DNA from: Gaiellaceae bacterium
GTDB lineage: Bacteria > Actinomycetota > Thermoleophilia > Gaiellales > Gaiellaceae
DNA length: 64,000 nucleotides
Reading direction: 5' to 3'
Assembly (NCBI GenBank): GCA_036001625.1
Contig: DASYUD010000006.1
Location: forward strand, 4,841-68,840
Shown piece after piece: positions 44,565-49,034 of this stretch (positions are counted from its first letter, which is position 1; each line of letters begins with the position of its first letter). Made by a program: the position numbers and the translations under genes. The notes under the pieces are model-generated. The model was not told the origin of the DNA and made no database searches. It saw nothing but the letters and a program-made list of their open reading frames with translations.

Positions 44565-44869
44565 GGCGTCGGAGCCTAGCGGCCGGGTGGATACCAGGTT
44601 GCATCCTCGAACCGGGCTGTGCGGCCGATCGGCCCGTCGCCGATCACGAAGTCGCCGGAATAACAGCCCTCGTGCACCGTCCGCGAAGGCGCGTAGTCGA
44701 GCGCTTTGACGCTGAAGGCTGCCGAGATTCCCGACCATGAGTGCATCTCAGGAAGACGAAACACGACGAGCCATGCGTCGCGGCCTTTGCTGTTCGTGCA
44801 CGAAGGGCGCTCCCATCACCGCGACCCCGCGACGCACGTGACGATCTGACAGGCGGGTAGAGTCGCCGC

Positions 44870-45820
44870 GTGCAGCTGGACCGCTCGACGACCTGGCCTT
44901 ACGTGCGCGGCGAGCCCGGCGAGTTCTACTACCAGCGCTACGCGCACCCGACCGGCGTGGCGGCAGAGCGCGCGCTCGGCGAGCTCGACGGCGGCGAGGC
45001 GCTGCTCTTCTCGTCCGGAGCCGGGGCGACGACCGCGGTCGTGCTCGCGCTCCTCAACCCCGGCGACACGATCGCCCTCGCCGAAGGGTGCTACTACGGC
45101 ACCGGCGTCCTCTTCCGCGAGCTCGAGCGGTGGGGCCTGCGGCACGTCGAGTTCGACCAGACCGGGCCGCCGCCGGACGGAGCGCAGCTCGTCTGGCTCG
45201 AAGCGCCCTCGAACCCGTTCCTGACCATGCCCGACTTCGAGGCCGCAGCTGCCCACCCCGCGCCCGTCCTGGTCGATGCGACCGCGGCCACCCCGATCCA
45301 CCTGCGACCGCTCGAGCGCGGCGCCGATCTCGTCTTGCACAGTGCGACGAAGTACCTCGGCGGCCACGCGGACGTGCTGCTCGGGGCGGTCGTCTGCCGG
45401 GACCCGCAGACCGCCGAGCGGCTGCGCGAGTTCCGAGGCCGCTCGGGGATCGTCGCCGCACCTGATGCGGCGTGGCTCCTGCTCCGCGGGCTGAAGACGC
45501 TCGGGCTGCGCGTCCGCCGCCAGACCGAGACCGCGGCCGAGCTCGCCCGCCGCCTTGAGGCGCACCCGAAAGTCGAGACTGTTCGTTACGCCGGCTTCGG
45601 CGGCCTGCTCTCGTTCGACGTCGCCGGCGACGCGCGAAGGGTCGAAACCTCGACACGGTTGATCACGAACGCGACGAGCCTCGGCGGAGTCGAGTCGCTG
45701 ATCGAGACCCGCCACCGCTGGGAGGGCGACCGGGTCCCGGAGAACCTGCTCCGCCTCAGCGTCGGCCTGGAGGACGTCGAGGAGCTCTGGGCCGACCTCG
45801 AGCAGGCGCTTTCGGGCTGA
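44870..45820 (+). CDS. Cys/Met-metabolism PLP-dependent enzyme (cystathionine gamma-synthase/beta-lyase family), compact form
   Basis: YQRYAHPTG, LHSATKYLGGHADVLLG (PLP lysine), SLGGVESLIE, LLRLSVGLEDVEEL. 316 aa. Confidence 0.8.
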   Translation: MQLDRSTTWPYVRGEPGEFYYQRYAHPTGVAAERALGELDGGEALLFSSGAGATTAVVLALLNPGDTIALAEGCYYGTGVLFRELERWGLRHVEFDQTGPPPDGAQLVWLEAPSNPFLTMPDFEAAAAHPAPVLVDATAATPIHLRPLERGADLVLHSATKYLGGHADVLLGAVVCRDPQTAERLREFRGRSGIVAAPDAAWLLLRGLKTLGLRVRRQTETAAELARRLEAHPKVETVRYAGFGGLLSFDVAGDARRVETSTRLITNATSLGGVESLIETRHRWEGDRVPENLLRLSVGLEDVEELWADLEQALSG

Positions 45821-47393: not shown

Positions 47394-47545
47394 CTGAGGA
47401 CCTCCTGACCGATTGGCAGAGCTTGCGGCTCTGCGCGGGGATTGCCTGTGTCGGTCAGCGATCCGTCATGAGACGGCGCCAGGAGGCGCCAGTCGGAATC
47501 GTAGCTTCTCCAGGAGAGTGTGTCCCAGAAATCCCGCTGGCCCGC

Positions 47546-48757
47546 TCAGCCGGCCTGCGTCTTGGCAGGTCCGTTGCCTCGAAGCTGGCGCGCAACCCCG
47601 TAGTCGCTCTGCTCGCGCTCAAGCCATTCGGCGAGGAACGGTTCGATGATGCAAAGGTCGCCCTCGCCGTTTCGTCCGACGATCTCCTTCTTGATGAGCG
47701 CGGATAGAGCAATCTGGAGCGTCGGATTACCTGGCAGCTCGCGACGCGAGTGGTATTCGGAGGCGTAGACGCCCGCCGTCGGCTCCTCGCCGAGCGCCAG
47801 CATCAGAAGCCGCTGCGAGTGCGGGGCGTCGTCCCAAAGCTGGGCGAAGTGATTGTGTTCGGATCGTAATACCCGCGTCAGCGCCTCGTTGACCTCAGCG
47901 GCGGTCACCTCTCCGCCAGCAGGTGCGAGCTCCCAGGCGAAGTAGGCGAGCTCCTGCGTCCCGTACGGGTGCCCGCCGGTCGCCACGAACAGGCGGTCGA
48001 GCGCGTCGTCGGTGATCTCCTTGCCGCTCCCCTTGAAGCGGGCCCGGATGAATCCGGCGAACTTCGCCGGGAGAATCATCCCCACCTCGAGCTGCTTGGC
48101 GCTTCGCCAGAACGGCTCGTTCTTGTCGTTGAAGATGCGCTCGAGGATGTGTCGCTTGCTGCCCAGGTAGACGTGGCTGACCTCAGGCTGGGCCTGGAAG
48201 ACAGCACGCATGAGATTTGGGAATTGCTTGTCGAGCGCCAGGATTTCCTGGAACTCGTCGAAGACGATGACCACTCTGCGCTTACGCTCGGCCGCCAGGT
48301 CGCCTAGTTTCTCCAGAAGCCTCTCGATTGTCTCGTCGATGTCCGTCTTCCGGCGACCAGCCTGAAAGCTGAATCGAAGCGTGCCATCGCTCGGGTCCAC
48401 CTCCATCGTCGGACGGACGCGAAGATCGCGGAAGAGCTCCGATGCCTTCTCGAACGCCTGCCCAACCGGTGAGGCGATGTCCGCGTAAATGCTCTTCGCG
48501 AGAGCGGCCGCGAACCGCTCCTTCGTGGGCGTCTTCATCAGGTCGACGTAGCCGACCAATGCCTTCTGGCCCATCGCCTCCTGTGCAGCCCTCAGGACAA
48601 GCGATGACTTGCCGTAGCGCCTTGGGGCGTAGACGAGGACGTTCTGCCCGTTGCGCATGTCTGAGGTTAGCTCGGCGACCTCGTCCTCTCGGTCAGTGAA
48701 GGCCTCGTCAAGTGCGAGGTCGCCGAAGGTGAAGGGGTTCGTCGGGATCTCATGCAT
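47546..48757 (-). CDS. AAA ATPase of the Arch_ATPase (PF01637-like) type with helical/wHTH-like C-terminus
   Basis: Met71 of ORF 47546..48967. FTDREDEVAELTSDMRNGQNVLVYAPRRYGKSSLV, VVIVFDEFQEI. GC visibly lower than the neighbours. Confidence 0.8.
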   Translation of the reverse strand: MHEIPTNPFTFGDLALDEAFTDREDEVAELTSDMRNGQNVLVYAPRRYGKSSLVLRAAQEAMGQKALVGYVDLMKTPTKERFAAALAKSIYADIASPVGQAFEKASELFRDLRVRPTMEVDPSDGTLRFSFQAGRRKTDIDETIERLLEKLGDLAAERKRRVVIVFDEFQEILALDKQFPNLMRAVFQAQPEVSHVYLGSKRHILERIFNDKNEPFWRSAKQLEVGMILPAKFAGFIRARFKGSGKEITDDALDRLFVATGGHPYGTQELAYFAWELAPAGGEVTAAEVNEALTRVLRSEHNHFAQLWDDAPHSQRLLMLALGEEPTAGVYASEYHSRRELPGNPTLQIALSALIKKEIVGRNGEGDLCIIEPFLAEWLEREQSDYGVARQLRGNGPAKTQAG

Positions 48758-48760
48758 CTC

Positions 48761-48864
48761 TACATAATGTATAAGTACATAAGAGCCGGCTTCCCCCCTC
48801 TCCTTTTGCAGAAAGGTGGGTGGCCAGTCCTGATGTATCGATACATAATGTACAGGTACATAAC
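48761..48864 (-). promoter_or_regulatory. AT-rich array of TACAT/ATGTA half-sites (two 23-nt direct repeats plus a 14-nt palindrome)
   Basis: tacataatgtataagtacataag (48761-48783). tacataatgtacaggtacataac (48842-48864). atgtatcgatacat (48833-48846). Ends 3 nt from the ATPase ATG. Confidence 0.6.
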
Positions 48865-48937
48865 GTCTCTCCCGCGACGACTGACACGATCGAGAGTCGG
48901 CCCCAATTACTGGGACTGACGCGTGGACACTCCCAGG

Positions 48938-49009
48938 AGCCGGAGGAGGGATTCGAACCCCCGACACGCGGCTTACAAAGCCGCTGCTCTACCCCTGAGC
49001 TACTCCGGC
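48938..49009 (-). tRNA. tRNA-Thr (anticodon UGU)
   Basis: Manual fold: acceptor GCCGGAG/CTCCGGC, D arm GCTC-AGGGGTA-GAGC, anticodon arm GCGGC-TTTGTAA-GCCGC, T arm GGGGG-TTCGAAT-CCCTC. CCA is not encoded. Confidence 0.85.
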
Positions 49010-49034
49010 GCTCGCCCCATCGTAGGCGAAAAGG

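What the first reader, a model, noticed from the sequence alone, without database searches (positions are those of the whole stretch)
47546..48937. Single-gene, lower-GC islet at the 3' end of tRNA-Thr: Arch_ATPase-type STAND-like ATPase behind a TACAT/ATGTA operator array
The 403-aa ATPase (RRYGKSSL Walker A, DEFQE Walker B, helical/wHTH-like tail) is visibly less GC-rich than its neighbours. It lies immediately downstream of the 3' end of tRNA-Thr(UGU), a classic integration hotspot. Its upstream 110 bp is the most AT-rich stretch in the window. That stretch holds two 23-nt direct repeats (TACATAATGTAYARGTACATAA, 20/23 identical, 81 bp apart), each containing the inverted repeat TACAT-A-ATGTA, plus a perfect 14-nt palindrome ATGTATCGATACAT. 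The first repeat ends 3 nt from the ATG, so the mRNA is leaderless or the repeats lie in the 5' UTR. Autoregulation through the C-terminal wHTH is a reasonable guess. ATPases of this family are poorly characterised. I found no integrase and no convincing att duplicate.
Basis: partly seen in the sequence, partly recalled or inferred. Interest (0 to 1): 0.62.

Follow-up and report, generated by a model that had tools for sequence, protein, structure and literature searches.

The report
Inserted ORC-like ATPase gene with self-operators
A 1.4-kb single-gene cassette was inserted exactly at the end of a tRNA-Thr gene in this soil actinobacterium (near-identical strains lack it); it encodes an uncharacterised origin-recognition-like ATPase that most likely switches off its own leaderless promoter by binding two palindrome arrays, which gives a large orphan protein family a testable activity.

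Summary
The gene (47546-48757, minus strand, 403 aa) is a PF01637 AAA+ ATPase. Its model (pLDDT 88) has an ORC/Cdc6-like base, lid and C-terminal winged helix. Its best structural matches are SSO1545 and PABY2304, then archaeal Orc1/Cdc6.

The repeats are 34 nt long, 81 bp apart. Each is two overlapping 18-bp palindromes. The proximal copy covers a -10 box and the ATG, with no Shine-Dalgarno sequence.

The islet reading is supported.
- Five soil metagenomes and two assembled contigs from a ~98%-identical strain join 47509 directly to 48933. They skip 1,423 bp, with CCAGGAG present at both borders.
- Two other species also have an empty tRNA 3' slot, so the window carries an insertion.
- In further species the slot holds Imm1 or DoxX genes, so it is a hotspot.
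- No integrase is present.

Autoregulation is supported computationally.
- The architecture recurs in most of 74 Gaiellales homologues, in unrelated contexts and with no partner gene.
- Half-sites change compensatorily between clades.
- The protein columns that best track operator class cluster at the start of the winged-helix recognition helix.

The cellular role is unknown. It is not DUF234, STAND or a known defence system. I found no published description of the family's self-operators.

The parts
48936..49009 (-). tRNA-Thr(UGU). Its 3' end is the insertion point.
   Evidence: ARAGORN. Rfam tRNA 69.7 bits, E 1e-14.
48933..48939 (.). Border repeat CCAGGAG (CTCCTGG on the coding strand). It overlaps the last bases of the tRNA.
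   Evidence: Empty-site contigs join 47509 to 48933, with 7 letters that fit either side. Sequence checked.
47510..48932 (-). The 1,423-bp inserted cassette: leader, two operators, the ATPase gene and a 36-nt tail. GC is 0.618.
   Evidence: Absent from a ~98%-identical strain in runs X5, X6, X7, X9 and X11 and in contigs L136 and L137. The slot is also empty in outgroups L140 and L144. GC.
48864..48932 (-). Cassette leader between the tRNA end and the distal operator. Function unknown. It holds a CTGGGA...TCCCAG hairpin.
   Evidence: Homologues show no nucleotide homology here.
48830..48863 (-). Distal operator: TTATGTACCTGTACATTATGTATCGATACATCAG. It is two overlapping 18-bp palindromes with a 15-bp period.
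   Evidence: 28 of 74 homologue loci have a significant distal copy 47-121 nt upstream (27 of the 28 at 47-90 nt).
48783..48829 (-). Spacer between the operators, containing its own hairpin. Together with the operators it forms an imperfect inverted repeat with 51-nt arms.
   Evidence: I1. RNA fold z = -5.1.
48749..48782 (-). Proximal operator: TTATGTACTTATACATTATGTAGAGATGCATGAG. It spans -25 to +9 and includes the start codon and codons 2-3.
   Evidence: Palindrome arms co-vary across 44 homologues.
48764..48769 (-). Predicted -10 box, CATTAT (CATAAT in most homologues). Its last T lies 7 nt before the A of the ATG, which implies a leaderless mRNA. No Shine-Dalgarno sequence is present.
   Evidence: the geometry is conserved in about 45 homologues. 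Not mapped experimentally; no RNA runs were found.
47546..48757 (-). CDS for a 403-aa PF01637 (ATPase_2) AAA+ ATPase with ORC/Cdc6-like architecture.
   Evidence: Pfam 48.7 bits against a cut-off of 33.2. AF2 pLDDT 88, pTM 0.82. Foldseek: 2FNA 5e-14, 2QEN 1e-13, 2V1U 2e-10.
48602..48628 (-). Walker A, APRRYGKSS (residues 44-52).
   Evidence: P45, R46, R47, G49, K50 and S52 are invariant in 61 homologues.
48245..48274 (-). Walker B, VVIVFDEFQE (residues 162-171).
47636..47821 (-). C-terminal winged helix-turn-helix (residues 313-374). The recognition helix starts at N344 (47678-47728) and the wing covers residues 361-374.
   Evidence: secondary structure; full-length match to Orc1/Cdc6; residues 344-347 and 349 are among the columns that best track operator class.
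47510..47516 (.). Second copy of the border repeat CCAGGAG, at the far end of the cassette.
47394..47509 (-). Native leader and promoter region of the ABC-F gene. In sister strains and outgroup species it directly follows the tRNA.
   Evidence: the AGAAGCTACGAT... tract is conserved after the tRNA in L136, L137 and L140.

Best explanation
A 1,423-bp single-gene cassette (47510-48932) was inserted at the extreme 3' end of tRNA-Thr(UGU). This slot lies between a conserved cysS-rlmB-yacP-sigma block and an ABC-F gene. The slot is a recurrent insertion hotspot in Gaiellaceae.

The cassette carries no recombinase. It is bordered by a 7-bp direct repeat. It was therefore probably integrated in trans, or by microhomology-mediated recombination (inferred).

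Its only gene encodes a PF01637 AAA+ ATPase built like Orc1/Cdc6: an AAA+ base, a lid and a C-terminal winged helix (shown by model and fold search).

The gene brings its own promoter. A -10 box lies 7 nt before the ATG and there is no Shine-Dalgarno sequence, so the mRNA is probably leaderless (inferred from geometry conserved across homologues).

The two 34-nt arrays are operators. Each is two overlapping 18-bp dyads, TTATGTA-N4-TACATAA, 15 bp apart. The protein reads them, as dimers, with its winged helix. The proximal array covers the -10 box, the transcription start and codons 1-3, so occupancy blocks RNA polymerase and the gene represses itself. The distal array, 81 bp upstream, would add cooperativity or looping through ATP-dependent oligomerisation (inferred).

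The downstream role of the protein is unknown. An accessory, conflict-type function such as DNA surveillance or exclusion is the best guess, because the gene is strain-variable and sits in a slot that elsewhere holds immunity-type cargo.
For: Insertion:
- Contigs of a strain ~98% identical in the flanks join 47509 to 48933 in runs X5, X6, X7, X9 and X11, from five studies. Depth over the gene is about 0, against 18-45 in the flanks.
- Assembled contigs L136 and L137 (ABC-F 98% identical) read tRNA...GGCTCCTGG|AGAAGCTACGAT.
- Outgroups L140 (ABC-F 83%) and L144 (77%) also have the tRNA directly before the ABC-F leader.
- Other cargo sits in the same 3' slot: Imm1 in L138 and L139, DoxX in L143.
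- None of 79 homologue loci shares the window's neighbours.

Protein:
- Pfam ATPase_2 hit above its cut-off.
- AF2 model with pLDDT 88 and a wHTH at residues 313-374.
- Foldseek matches to 2FNA and 2QEN, then to Orc1/Cdc6 over the full length.

Operators:
- The motif is unique to this promoter in the window, with 0.00 copies expected.
- The same architecture, anchored on the start codon, appears in about 45 of 74 homologues.
- Half-sites differ by clade: TATG/CATA, TATAC/GTATA, TTACG/CGTAA, TTGCGAG/CTCGCAA, GGCAC/GTGCC.
- 40 cells show compensatory double changes, against 12.9 in shuffles (0 of 500 shuffles reached it). Slid controls score far lower.
- 28 of 74 loci have a significant distal copy.
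- No neighbouring gene family occurs in more than 8 of 74 loci, so the ATPase is the only protein that travels with the site.
- After residue 2, whose codon lies inside the operator, the columns that best track operator class are 345, 349, 347, 346 and 344. That is 5 of the 6 residues at the start of the recognition helix, within the top 30 of 380 columns.
- Non-Watson-Crick cells are not enriched for G-T: 11 of 64, which is about the chance level (counted). This fits a DNA site rather than an RNA stem.
Against: - Binding, repression and the transcription start were not measured, and no RNA runs were found.
- The operator classes follow the protein phylogeny. The number of independent changes is therefore small, and the column test controls for shared ancestry only partly.
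- Some close homologues (L012, L014, L021, L040) lack a clear distal copy.
A wider regulon, or a different reader protein encoded elsewhere, is not excluded.
- The -35 region is poor, and the consensus scan found a promoter only on the opposite strand.
- The 7-bp border repeat is too short to tell an att core from a target-site duplication or from microhomology.
- The putative terminal inverted repeats are no better than many chance pairs.
- A ~96-99% variant of the filled allele and a diverged empty allele co-occur in run X13. The population history is therefore not a simple single event.
Confidence: 0.66

Rival explanations
1. The arrays are read by a different host regulator encoded elsewhere, for example a global repressor or a stress regulator. 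On this reading the ATPase is only a regulon member and does not regulate itself.
For: The genome could not be scanned for further copies of the motif. AT-rich palindromes over -10 boxes are common operator designs for many repressor families.
Against: - The site changes sequence from clade to clade while keeping its architecture, and it moves with the gene into unrelated contexts.
- No partner gene co-occurs.
- The best class-predicting protein columns lie in the ATPase's own recognition helix.
- The motif occurs nowhere else in 64 kb.
Confidence: 0.12
2. The array works as RNA. The two copies and the spacer would fold into a long 5'-UTR hairpin that hides the start codon or ends tRNA read-through transcripts.
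For: As RNA, 48740-48935 folds to -81.2 kcal/mol with z = -5.1, and 0 of 200 shuffles fold as well. The region has 51-nt inverted-repeat arms.
Against: - Two copies of any palindromic site must pair with each other, so the fold follows from the DNA dyads.
- G-T is not enriched among mismatched cells.
- The distance between copies and the spacer sequence are not conserved; the distance ranges from 47 to 90 nt.
- The 5' arm of the proximal dyad lies upstream of the predicted transcription start.
- There is no Rfam match.
Confidence: 0.05
3. The cassette is, or derives from, a minimal replicon or selfish element. On this reading the ORC-like protein is an initiator or partition-type protein, and the arrays are origin or iteron-like (ORB-like) sites used for replication or for the element's own movement.
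For: - The fold matches Orc1/Cdc6 bound to origin DNA (2V1U, 2QBY).
- Repeated sites next to the initiator gene mirror archaeal oriC and plasmid rep-iteron layouts.
- The cassette is mobile, yet has no recombinase.
Against: - The family is rare on plasmids (13 of 72,556 records) and in phages (2 records).
- The spacer between the arrays is not an AT-rich unwinding element.
- Many copies are inherited vertically within clades in fixed contexts.
- No helicase or other partner gene is present.
Confidence: 0.07
4. The polymorphism is a deletion. On this reading the gene is ancestral at this tRNA, and sister strains lost it through recombination between the two 7-bp repeats.
For: A 7-bp microhomology is enough for slippage-type deletion. 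A diverged filled allele exists in runs X13 and X20, so the filled state is not very recent.
Against: - Outgroup species L140 and L144 have the tRNA directly followed by the conserved AGAAGCTACGAT leader.
- Other species hold unrelated cargo in the slot.
- No homologue elsewhere sits at tRNA-Thr/ABC-F.
- The gene has the lowest GC in the window.
Confidence: 0.08

Closest known systems
Archaeal ATPase_2 (PF01637) proteins SSO1545 (PDB 2FNA) and PABY2304 (PDB 2QEN)
   Same: They are the best structural matches over the full length: E 5e-14 and 1e-13, TM 0.61-0.70. They belong to the same Pfam family.
   Different: Sequence identity is only 17-19%, and there is no sequence-level PDB hit. They are structural-genomics targets. 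My searches found no function, DNA site or self-operator reported for them.
Orc1-2 of Sulfolobales, an Orc1/Cdc6 paralogue that acts as a sequence-specific transcription factor (PMC6061795, PMC9738581)
   Same: It is an ORC-like AAA+ protein with a winged helix that is used for promoter recognition rather than replication initiation. It is the best functional precedent.
   Different: Orc1-2 is an activator of a DNA-damage regulon through a short ANTTTC motif. The window's protein faces dyad arrays over its own -10 box and start codon, which implies self-repression. It is bacterial, is a mobile single gene, and belongs to a different sequence family.
Archaeal Orc1/Cdc6 initiators with ORB repeats next to their own gene (PDB 2V1U, 2QBY, 1FNN)
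   Same: The three-domain architecture is the same, and repeated recognition sites lie immediately upstream of the gene.
   Different: TM is only 0.44-0.46. There is no Cdc6_C Pfam hit. The sites are tandem dyads over a promoter and do not flank an AT-rich unwinding element. The host is a bacterium, and bacteria normally initiate replication with DnaA; dnaA itself was not looked for here.
Autoregulated repressors with paired operators that travel with mobile genes (restriction-modification controller C proteins with C-boxes; lambda CI with OR/OL)
   Different: Those are small HTH proteins without an ATPase.
tRNA-adjacent genomic islands and integrative elements
   Same: The insertion is at the 3' end of a tRNA gene, has a direct repeat at both borders, varies between strains, and occupies a slot reused by other cargo.
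   Different: The cassette is only 1.4 kb with one gene. No integrase lies in or beside it. The repeat is only 7 bp.
STAND/MalT-type regulators such as mycobacterial IniR (PMC5760070)
   Same: IniR's NTPase domain is modelled on SSO1545, and the protein is an ATP-dependent transcription regulator.
   Different: IniR is 818 aa, with a MalT-like sensor domain and a LuxR-type HTH. The window's protein has no sensor repeats, and its nSTAND1 score is below the cut-off.

Membership tests
Pfam ATPase_2 (PF01637, 'Arch_ATPase') | HMM match above the curated gathering score | tested here: met
   48.7 bits against a cut-off of 33.2, covering residues 20-265.
Pfam ATPase_2 (PF01637, 'Arch_ATPase') | Intact Walker A (GK[ST]) and Walker B (hhhhDE) motifs | tested here: met
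   APRRYGKSS at residues 44-52 and VVIVFDEFQE at 162-171. The motifs are invariant or nearly invariant in 61 homologues.
Pfam ATPase_2 (PF01637, 'Arch_ATPase') | Fold like the solved family members | tested here: met
   2FNA E 5e-14, TM 0.61/0.68. 2QEN E 1.2e-13, TM 0.62/0.70.
DUF234 (PF03008) C-terminal domain, classed as PD-(D/E)XK-like | HMM match in the C-terminal region | tested here: not met
   No Pfam hit for residues 293-403 even at E <= 10. The region is modelled as a wHTH. The classification of DUF234 is from PMC3424549.
Orc1/Cdc6 initiators | AAA+ base, lid and C-terminal winged-helix architecture | tested here: met
   Full-length Foldseek matches to 2V1U, 1FNN, 2QBY and 1W5S at E 2e-10 to 5e-9, but TM only 0.40-0.48.
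Orc1/Cdc6 initiators | Sequence-level family membership (Cdc6/Orc Pfam models) | tested here: not met
   Only ATPase_2 and generic AAA models were hit. There is no PDB sequence hit.
Orc1/Cdc6 initiators | Initiator-specific motif, and a function at a replication origin | not testable with these tools
   The ISM was not examined in the model. Origin activity needs an experiment.
   nSTAND1 scores 23.8 bits, below its 27.1 cut-off. The protein ends after the wHTH and has no repeat domain.
Known anti-phage defence systems (PADLOC-DB 2.0) | Match to a defence-system protein model | tested here: not met
   The only hits are a partial P-loop match to mad8 (E 9e-6, residues 23-182) and PDC-S01 at E 0.029. 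The PHROGs hit is only E 0.008.
tRNA-integrating genomic island | Insertion at the tRNA 3' end with presence/absence between strains | tested here: met
   Empty site in five runs and two contigs. The outgroup slot is empty.
tRNA-integrating genomic island | Direct repeat (att core) at both borders | tested here: inconclusive
   A 7-bp CCAGGAG repeat lies at both borders. It is too short to tell an att core from a target-site duplication or microhomology.
tRNA-integrating genomic island | Own integrase or recombinase | tested here: not met
   The cassette has one gene. Its neighbours are a sigma factor, YacP, RlmB, CysS and ABC-F.
Autoregulated transcription factor | Sequence-specific binding to its own promoter and repression | not testable with these tools
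   Only indirect evidence is available: co-travelling operators, arm covariation and recognition-helix covariation.

The most novel reading that the evidence does not exclude
The ATPase and its matched operator form a self-contained, widely spread single-gene conflict module of a new kind. It would be an 'addressed' ORC-like DNA-loading ATPase kept silent by binding its own lineage-specific dyads. On a trigger it would oligomerise on DNA to block replication or transcription of an invader or a competitor. It would spread as a recombinase-less cassette into tRNA-adjacent hotspots.
Probability: 0.15. Interest if true: 0.8.

Novelty: new variant of a known kind. Interest (0 to 1): 0.58.

Why it matters
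**Size of the family.** PF01637-type ATPases with this architecture form a large orphan family. A profile search found 1,791 clusters at 50% identity with E <= 1e-30 and 6,775 with E <= 1e-10. Databases label them only 'ATP-binding protein'.

**A testable activity.** The protein and its upstream dyads co-evolve, and the likely specificity residues can be pinned to one helical turn. That makes a concrete experiment possible: binding to a defined DNA site and self-repression from a leaderless promoter.

**A natural comparison.** The exact empty site in near-identical strains provides a presence/absence pair for asking what the gene does in soil Gaiellaceae. It also shows how a single gene with no recombinase can enter a tRNA-adjacent hotspot.

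**Status of the evidence.** The locus itself is one more example of a module that this scan has met several times. The fresh evidence here is the population-level insertion and the recognition-helix covariation. This is not a new kind of system.

Tried and rejected
I could not scan the whole genome for further operator copies, paralogues or an integrase.

**Analyses that led nowhere**
- A crude k-mer census and a self-versus-cross count of a 7-mer taken from codons 1-3 were too noisy in the GC-rich background. I replaced them with a start-anchored alignment.
- Sigma-factor relatives in JGI metagenomes (L080-L082) gave no clean empty site, because synteny breaks or the tRNA is inverted. The ABC-F route worked instead.
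- The closest copies are at most 80% identical and align only over the CDS and the proximal operator. Conserved cassette termini could therefore not be defined.
- No RNA runs hold the gene.
- The SSO1545 structure paper was not held in the library.

**Ideas rejected**
- Terminal inverted repeats: the 11-nt pair 47522-47532 / 48906-48916 and the AGTGT(GT)CC ends are no better than about 40 other chance pairs in 1.6 kb.
- A repeat of the tRNA end after the gene in other tRNA-adjacent homologues (L028, L042, L044, L049, L069): only chance-level 7-10-mers were found.
- tRNA adjacency of the family: 6 of 74 loci have a same-strand tRNA within 600 nt upstream, but four share one tRNA-Leu context. 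That leaves about three independent cases, which is suggestive only.
- A known RNA family in the intergenic region: none found.
- DUF234, STAND and PADLOC memberships were each tested and not met.
Full report
**1. What is there**

- The finding's interval holds one gene on the minus strand, 47546-48757, encoding 403 aa.
- tRNA-Thr(UGU) lies at 48936-49009 on the same strand, 178 nt upstream, with its 3' end facing the gene.
- Further upstream, on the same strand, are a SigH-like sigma factor, a YacP NYN protein, an RlmB-like methylase and CysS. Downstream is an ABC-F ATPase.
- The repeats are real and longer than reported. Two 34-nt copies sit at 48749-48782 and 48830-48863, 82% identical and 81 bp apart.
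- On the coding strand the distal copy reads TTATGTACCTGTACATTATGTATCGATACATCAG. The proximal copy reads TTATGTACTTATACATTATGTAGAGATGCATGAG.
- Each copy is two overlapping 18-bp dyads (TTATGTA-N4-TACATAA) with a 15-bp period. The last dyad of the proximal copy contains the start codon and codons 2-3.
- The core patterns occur nowhere else in the 64-kb window, and none is expected by chance.
- 48759-48868 is the most AT-rich 110-nt stretch of the window (GC 0.445).
- The gene has the lowest GC among the window's long ORFs (0.632 against 0.696 +/- 0.030). Its GC3 of 0.812 is only about 1 sd low.

**2. The cassette is a true insertion at a hotspot**

Laying public soil-metagenome contigs on the region gave the decisive result.

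- Run X1 holds an identical contig across the gene. X1 is probably the source sample.
- Runs X5, X6, X7, X9 and X11, from five different studies, hold a strain with 13-14 differences per 674 nt in the ABC-F flank.
- That strain's contig joins 47509 directly to 48933, skipping 1,423 bp. Seven letters fit either side.
- Its depth over the gene is about 0, against 18-45 in the flanks.
- The seven letters are CCAGGAG, at 47510-47516 and 48933-48939. The second copy overlaps the last bases of the tRNA.

Looking up ABC-F homologues gave assembled contexts.

| Locus | ABC-F identity | Region between sigma factor and ABC-F |
|---|---|---|
| L136, L137 | 98% | tRNA-Thr, then empty: ...GGCTCCTGG\|AGAAGCTACGATTCC |
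| L140 | 83% | Cargo (PDDEXK_5 gene) on the 5' side of the tRNA; 3' slot empty, AGAAGCTACGAT leader conserved |
| L144 | 77% | An 84-aa ORF on the 5' side of the tRNA; 3' slot empty |
| L138, L139 | 82% | tRNA-Thr, then an Imm1 (PF14430) gene in the 3' slot |
| L143 | 78% | tRNA-Thr, then a DoxX gene in the 3' slot |

L141 (ABC-F 82%) also has a DoxX gene just before ABC-F, but its contig ends before any tRNA.

- L136 and L137 keep the full order gltX-cysS-rlmB-yacP-sigma-tRNA-Thr-ABC-F.
- The empty state is therefore ancestral, the window carries an insertion, and the slot is reused by unrelated cargo.
- None of 79 loci that encode homologues of the ATPase shares the window's neighbours.
- A ~96-99% variant of the filled allele, and a diverged empty allele, occur at low depth in runs X13 and X20. 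The polymorphism has therefore segregated for some time.
- No recombinase lies in the cassette or beside it.
- Putative terminal inverted repeats are not better than chance.
- The closest copies elsewhere are at most 80% identical and align only over the CDS and the proximal operator, so conserved termini cannot be defined.

**3. The protein**

- It matches Pfam ATPase_2 (PF01637) above the cut-off, plus generic AAA models.
- It has no DUF234 domain, and the C-terminal 111 residues hit no Pfam model even at E <= 10.
- PADLOC gives only a weak partial P-loop match to mad8. NCBIfam and PHROGs give nothing meaningful.
- An AlphaFold2 model built on 61 homologues has pLDDT 88 and pTM 0.82.
- The model shows an AAA+ base, a helical lid and a C-terminal winged helix. 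The helices are at 313-324, 333-338 and 344-356, and the wing strands at 360-362 and 368-370.
- Foldseek against the PDB ranks SSO1545 (2FNA, 5e-14) and PABY2304 (2QEN, 1e-13) first. Archaeal Orc1/Cdc6, including DNA complexes, and eukaryotic ORC/Cdc6 follow over the full length.
- The family is large. A profile search found 1,791 clusters at 50% identity with E <= 1e-30.
- 241 relatives were found in GTDB species genomes. Nearly all of the best 79 are Gaiellales or Thermoleophilia MAGs.
- The family is rare on plasmids (13 records) and in phage records (2), where it is annotated only as 'ATP-binding protein'.

**4. The arrays as the protein's own operators**

I anchored the upstream regions of 74 homologues on their start codons.

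- About 45 share one architecture: yTATG-N8-CATAATG-N5-(A/G)TG-CATAa.
- It contains a -10-like CATAAT whose last T is 7 nt before the start codon, and no Shine-Dalgarno sequence.
- By contrast, the neighbouring ABC-F gene has GGAGG before its start. A leaderless mRNA is therefore the natural reading.
- The flanking half-sites are not promoter elements, and they change by clade:
  - TATG/CATA in the window's clade;
  - TATAC/GTATA;
  - TTACG/CGTAA;
  - TTGCGAG/CTCGCAA;
  - GGCAC/GTGCC.
- Homologues at 31-33% identity from an Omnitrophota bacterium and a Nitrosopumilaceae archaeon also have palindromes upstream.
- In 44 aligned promoters the nine dyad pairs are complementary in 85.9% of cells. 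Forty cells are changed on both sides, against 12.9 +/- 4.0 in shuffles (0 of 500 shuffles reached it). Slid controls score far lower.
- Among mismatched cells G-T is not enriched (11 of 64). This argues for a double-stranded DNA site and against an RNA stem.
- 28 of 74 loci have a significant second copy 47-121 nt upstream (27 of them at 47-90 nt). That copy resembles its own proximal copy more than the copies of other loci.
- No neighbouring gene family is present in more than 8 of 74 loci. The ATPase is therefore the only protein that always accompanies the site.
- I ranked alignment columns by how well they track operator class. Residue 2 came first, trivially, because its codon lies inside the operator.
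- Residues 345, 349, 347, 346 and 344 followed. These are 5 of the 6 residues at the start of the recognition helix (NPTLQI), within the top 30 of 380 columns.
- All columns share the same phylogeny, so this concentration is hard to explain unless that helix reads the half-site.

**5. Mechanism proposed**

- *Shown:* the cassette is inserted. The protein has an ORC-like fold with a wHTH. The operators travel and co-vary with the gene.
- *Inferred:*
  - Dimers bind the dyads through the winged helix.
  - The proximal array covers the -10 box, the transcription start and the first codons, which gives autorepression of a leaderless transcript.
  - The distal array adds cooperativity or looping through nucleotide-dependent oligomerisation.
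- *Unknown:* the output. The protein has no effector domain.
- The strain-variable state, and a slot that elsewhere holds Imm1 and PD-(D/E)XK-type genes, make an accessory conflict or DNA-surveillance role the best guess.

**6. Rivals**

- **Another regulator reads the sites.** This is unlikely given the covariation and portability, but the genome could not be scanned.
- **RNA structure.** The fold has z = -5.1. This follows from two copies of a dyad. The spacing is not conserved and wobble pairs are not enriched.
- **Origin or iteron-like function of a minimal replicon.** The fold resemblance and the lack of a recombinase allow it. There is no unwinding element, and the family is rare on plasmids.
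- **Deletion instead of insertion.** The outgroup species contradict it.

**7. Comparison with what is known**

- Structurally the protein belongs with SSO1545 and PABY2304 (PF01637).
- The best functional precedent is Orc1-2 of Sulfolobales, an ORC paralogue that binds a promoter motif and controls a regulon (PMC6061795; PMC9738581).
- The circuit logic resembles portable autoregulated repressors such as restriction-modification controller proteins.
- IniR shows that an SSO1545-like NTPase domain can serve an actinobacterial transcription regulator (PMC5760070).
- DUF234 is classed as PD-(D/E)XK-like (PMC3424549) and is absent here.
- My literature searches found no description of this bacterial family's self-operators.

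**8. Earlier notes of this scan**

- Earlier notes describe the same protein-plus-palindrome module in other genomes.
- I had already formed the autoregulation idea, before reading them. I treated them as leads only.
- This window adds two things: the exact empty site in natural strains together with the hotspot series, and the recognition-helix covariation.

**9. Verdict**

  - the protein is not STAND or DUF234;
  - a 7-bp border repeat exists;
  - composition is only mildly foreign.
- This is a new variant of a known kind, of moderate to good interest.
- The main limits are the lack of any binding or expression data and the closed whole-genome tools.

Noticed in passing
L138:3987-4500, L143:2853-3500, L140:2892-4305, L144:2804-3305 (the counterpart of window 47394-49034): The interval between the sigma factor and ABC-F is hypervariable across Gaiellaceae species. 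An Imm1 (PF14430) gene or a DoxX gene sits 3' of tRNA-Thr. A PDDEXK_5 gene or an 84-aa ORF sits 5' of it. The flanking gltX-cysS-rlmB-yacP-sigma and ABC-F-ACC-GGDEF blocks stay fixed.
   Followed up: partly
window 44816-45820: The 299-aa minus-strand ORF 44816-45715 has no Pfam hit and is probably a shadow. Homologous loci call a 316-aa Cys_Met_Meta_PP gene on the opposite strand (window 44870-45820, + strand). It converges on the 3' end of the ABC-F gene and overlaps it by about 65 nt.
   Followed up: partly
window 48740-48935: The two operators and the spacer form one large imperfect inverted repeat with 51-nt arms, 71% complementary. The spacer has its own 10-bp hairpin. As RNA the region folds with z = -5.1. 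Whether a cruciform or a transcript structure has any role is unknown.
   Followed up: partly
window 48821-48849 (+ strand): Because the operator is palindromic, a promoter-like site (TGGCCA-17-CATAAT, 9 of 12 matches) also reads on the opposite strand, pointing towards the tRNA. It was the only consensus promoter hit in the region.
   Followed up: no
L014:7227-7300: One homologue has a further operator-like element (GCTATGCGCGCTTACATTATGTCTTACTGCATAAGG) just after its stop codon. The gene may be bracketed by sites, or a second promoter may follow.
   Followed up: no
L078:3300-3380 and L079:5900-5990: Homologues at 31-33% identity from an Omnitrophota bacterium and a Nitrosopumilaceae archaeon also carry palindromes upstream: TTACATAATGTAA repeats and ACGCAAATTTGCGT. 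The protein-plus-dyad pairing may therefore extend across phyla and domains.
   Followed up: partly
L028, L042, L044, L069 (tRNA-Leu-UAA); L049 (tRNA-Gly-UCC): Six of 74 homologue loci, including the window, have a same-strand tRNA within 600 nt upstream, against roughly 0.5% expected. Four share one tRNA-Leu context, so there are only about three independent cases. No border repeats were found in them.
   Followed up: partly
L072, L075 (C-terminal third); L016, L036, L053, L068, L077 (start region): Several homologues lose the reading frame near the C-terminus or lack an in-frame start at the expected place. Some copies may be decaying, or the assemblies may contain errors.
   Followed up: no
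window 47468-47622 in runs X13 and X20: A ~96% variant of the filled allele has C>T at 47510, so its left border repeat is only 6 of 7. Run X13 also holds a diverged empty allele. Filled and empty alleles therefore both occur in more than one strain lineage.
   Followed up: partly
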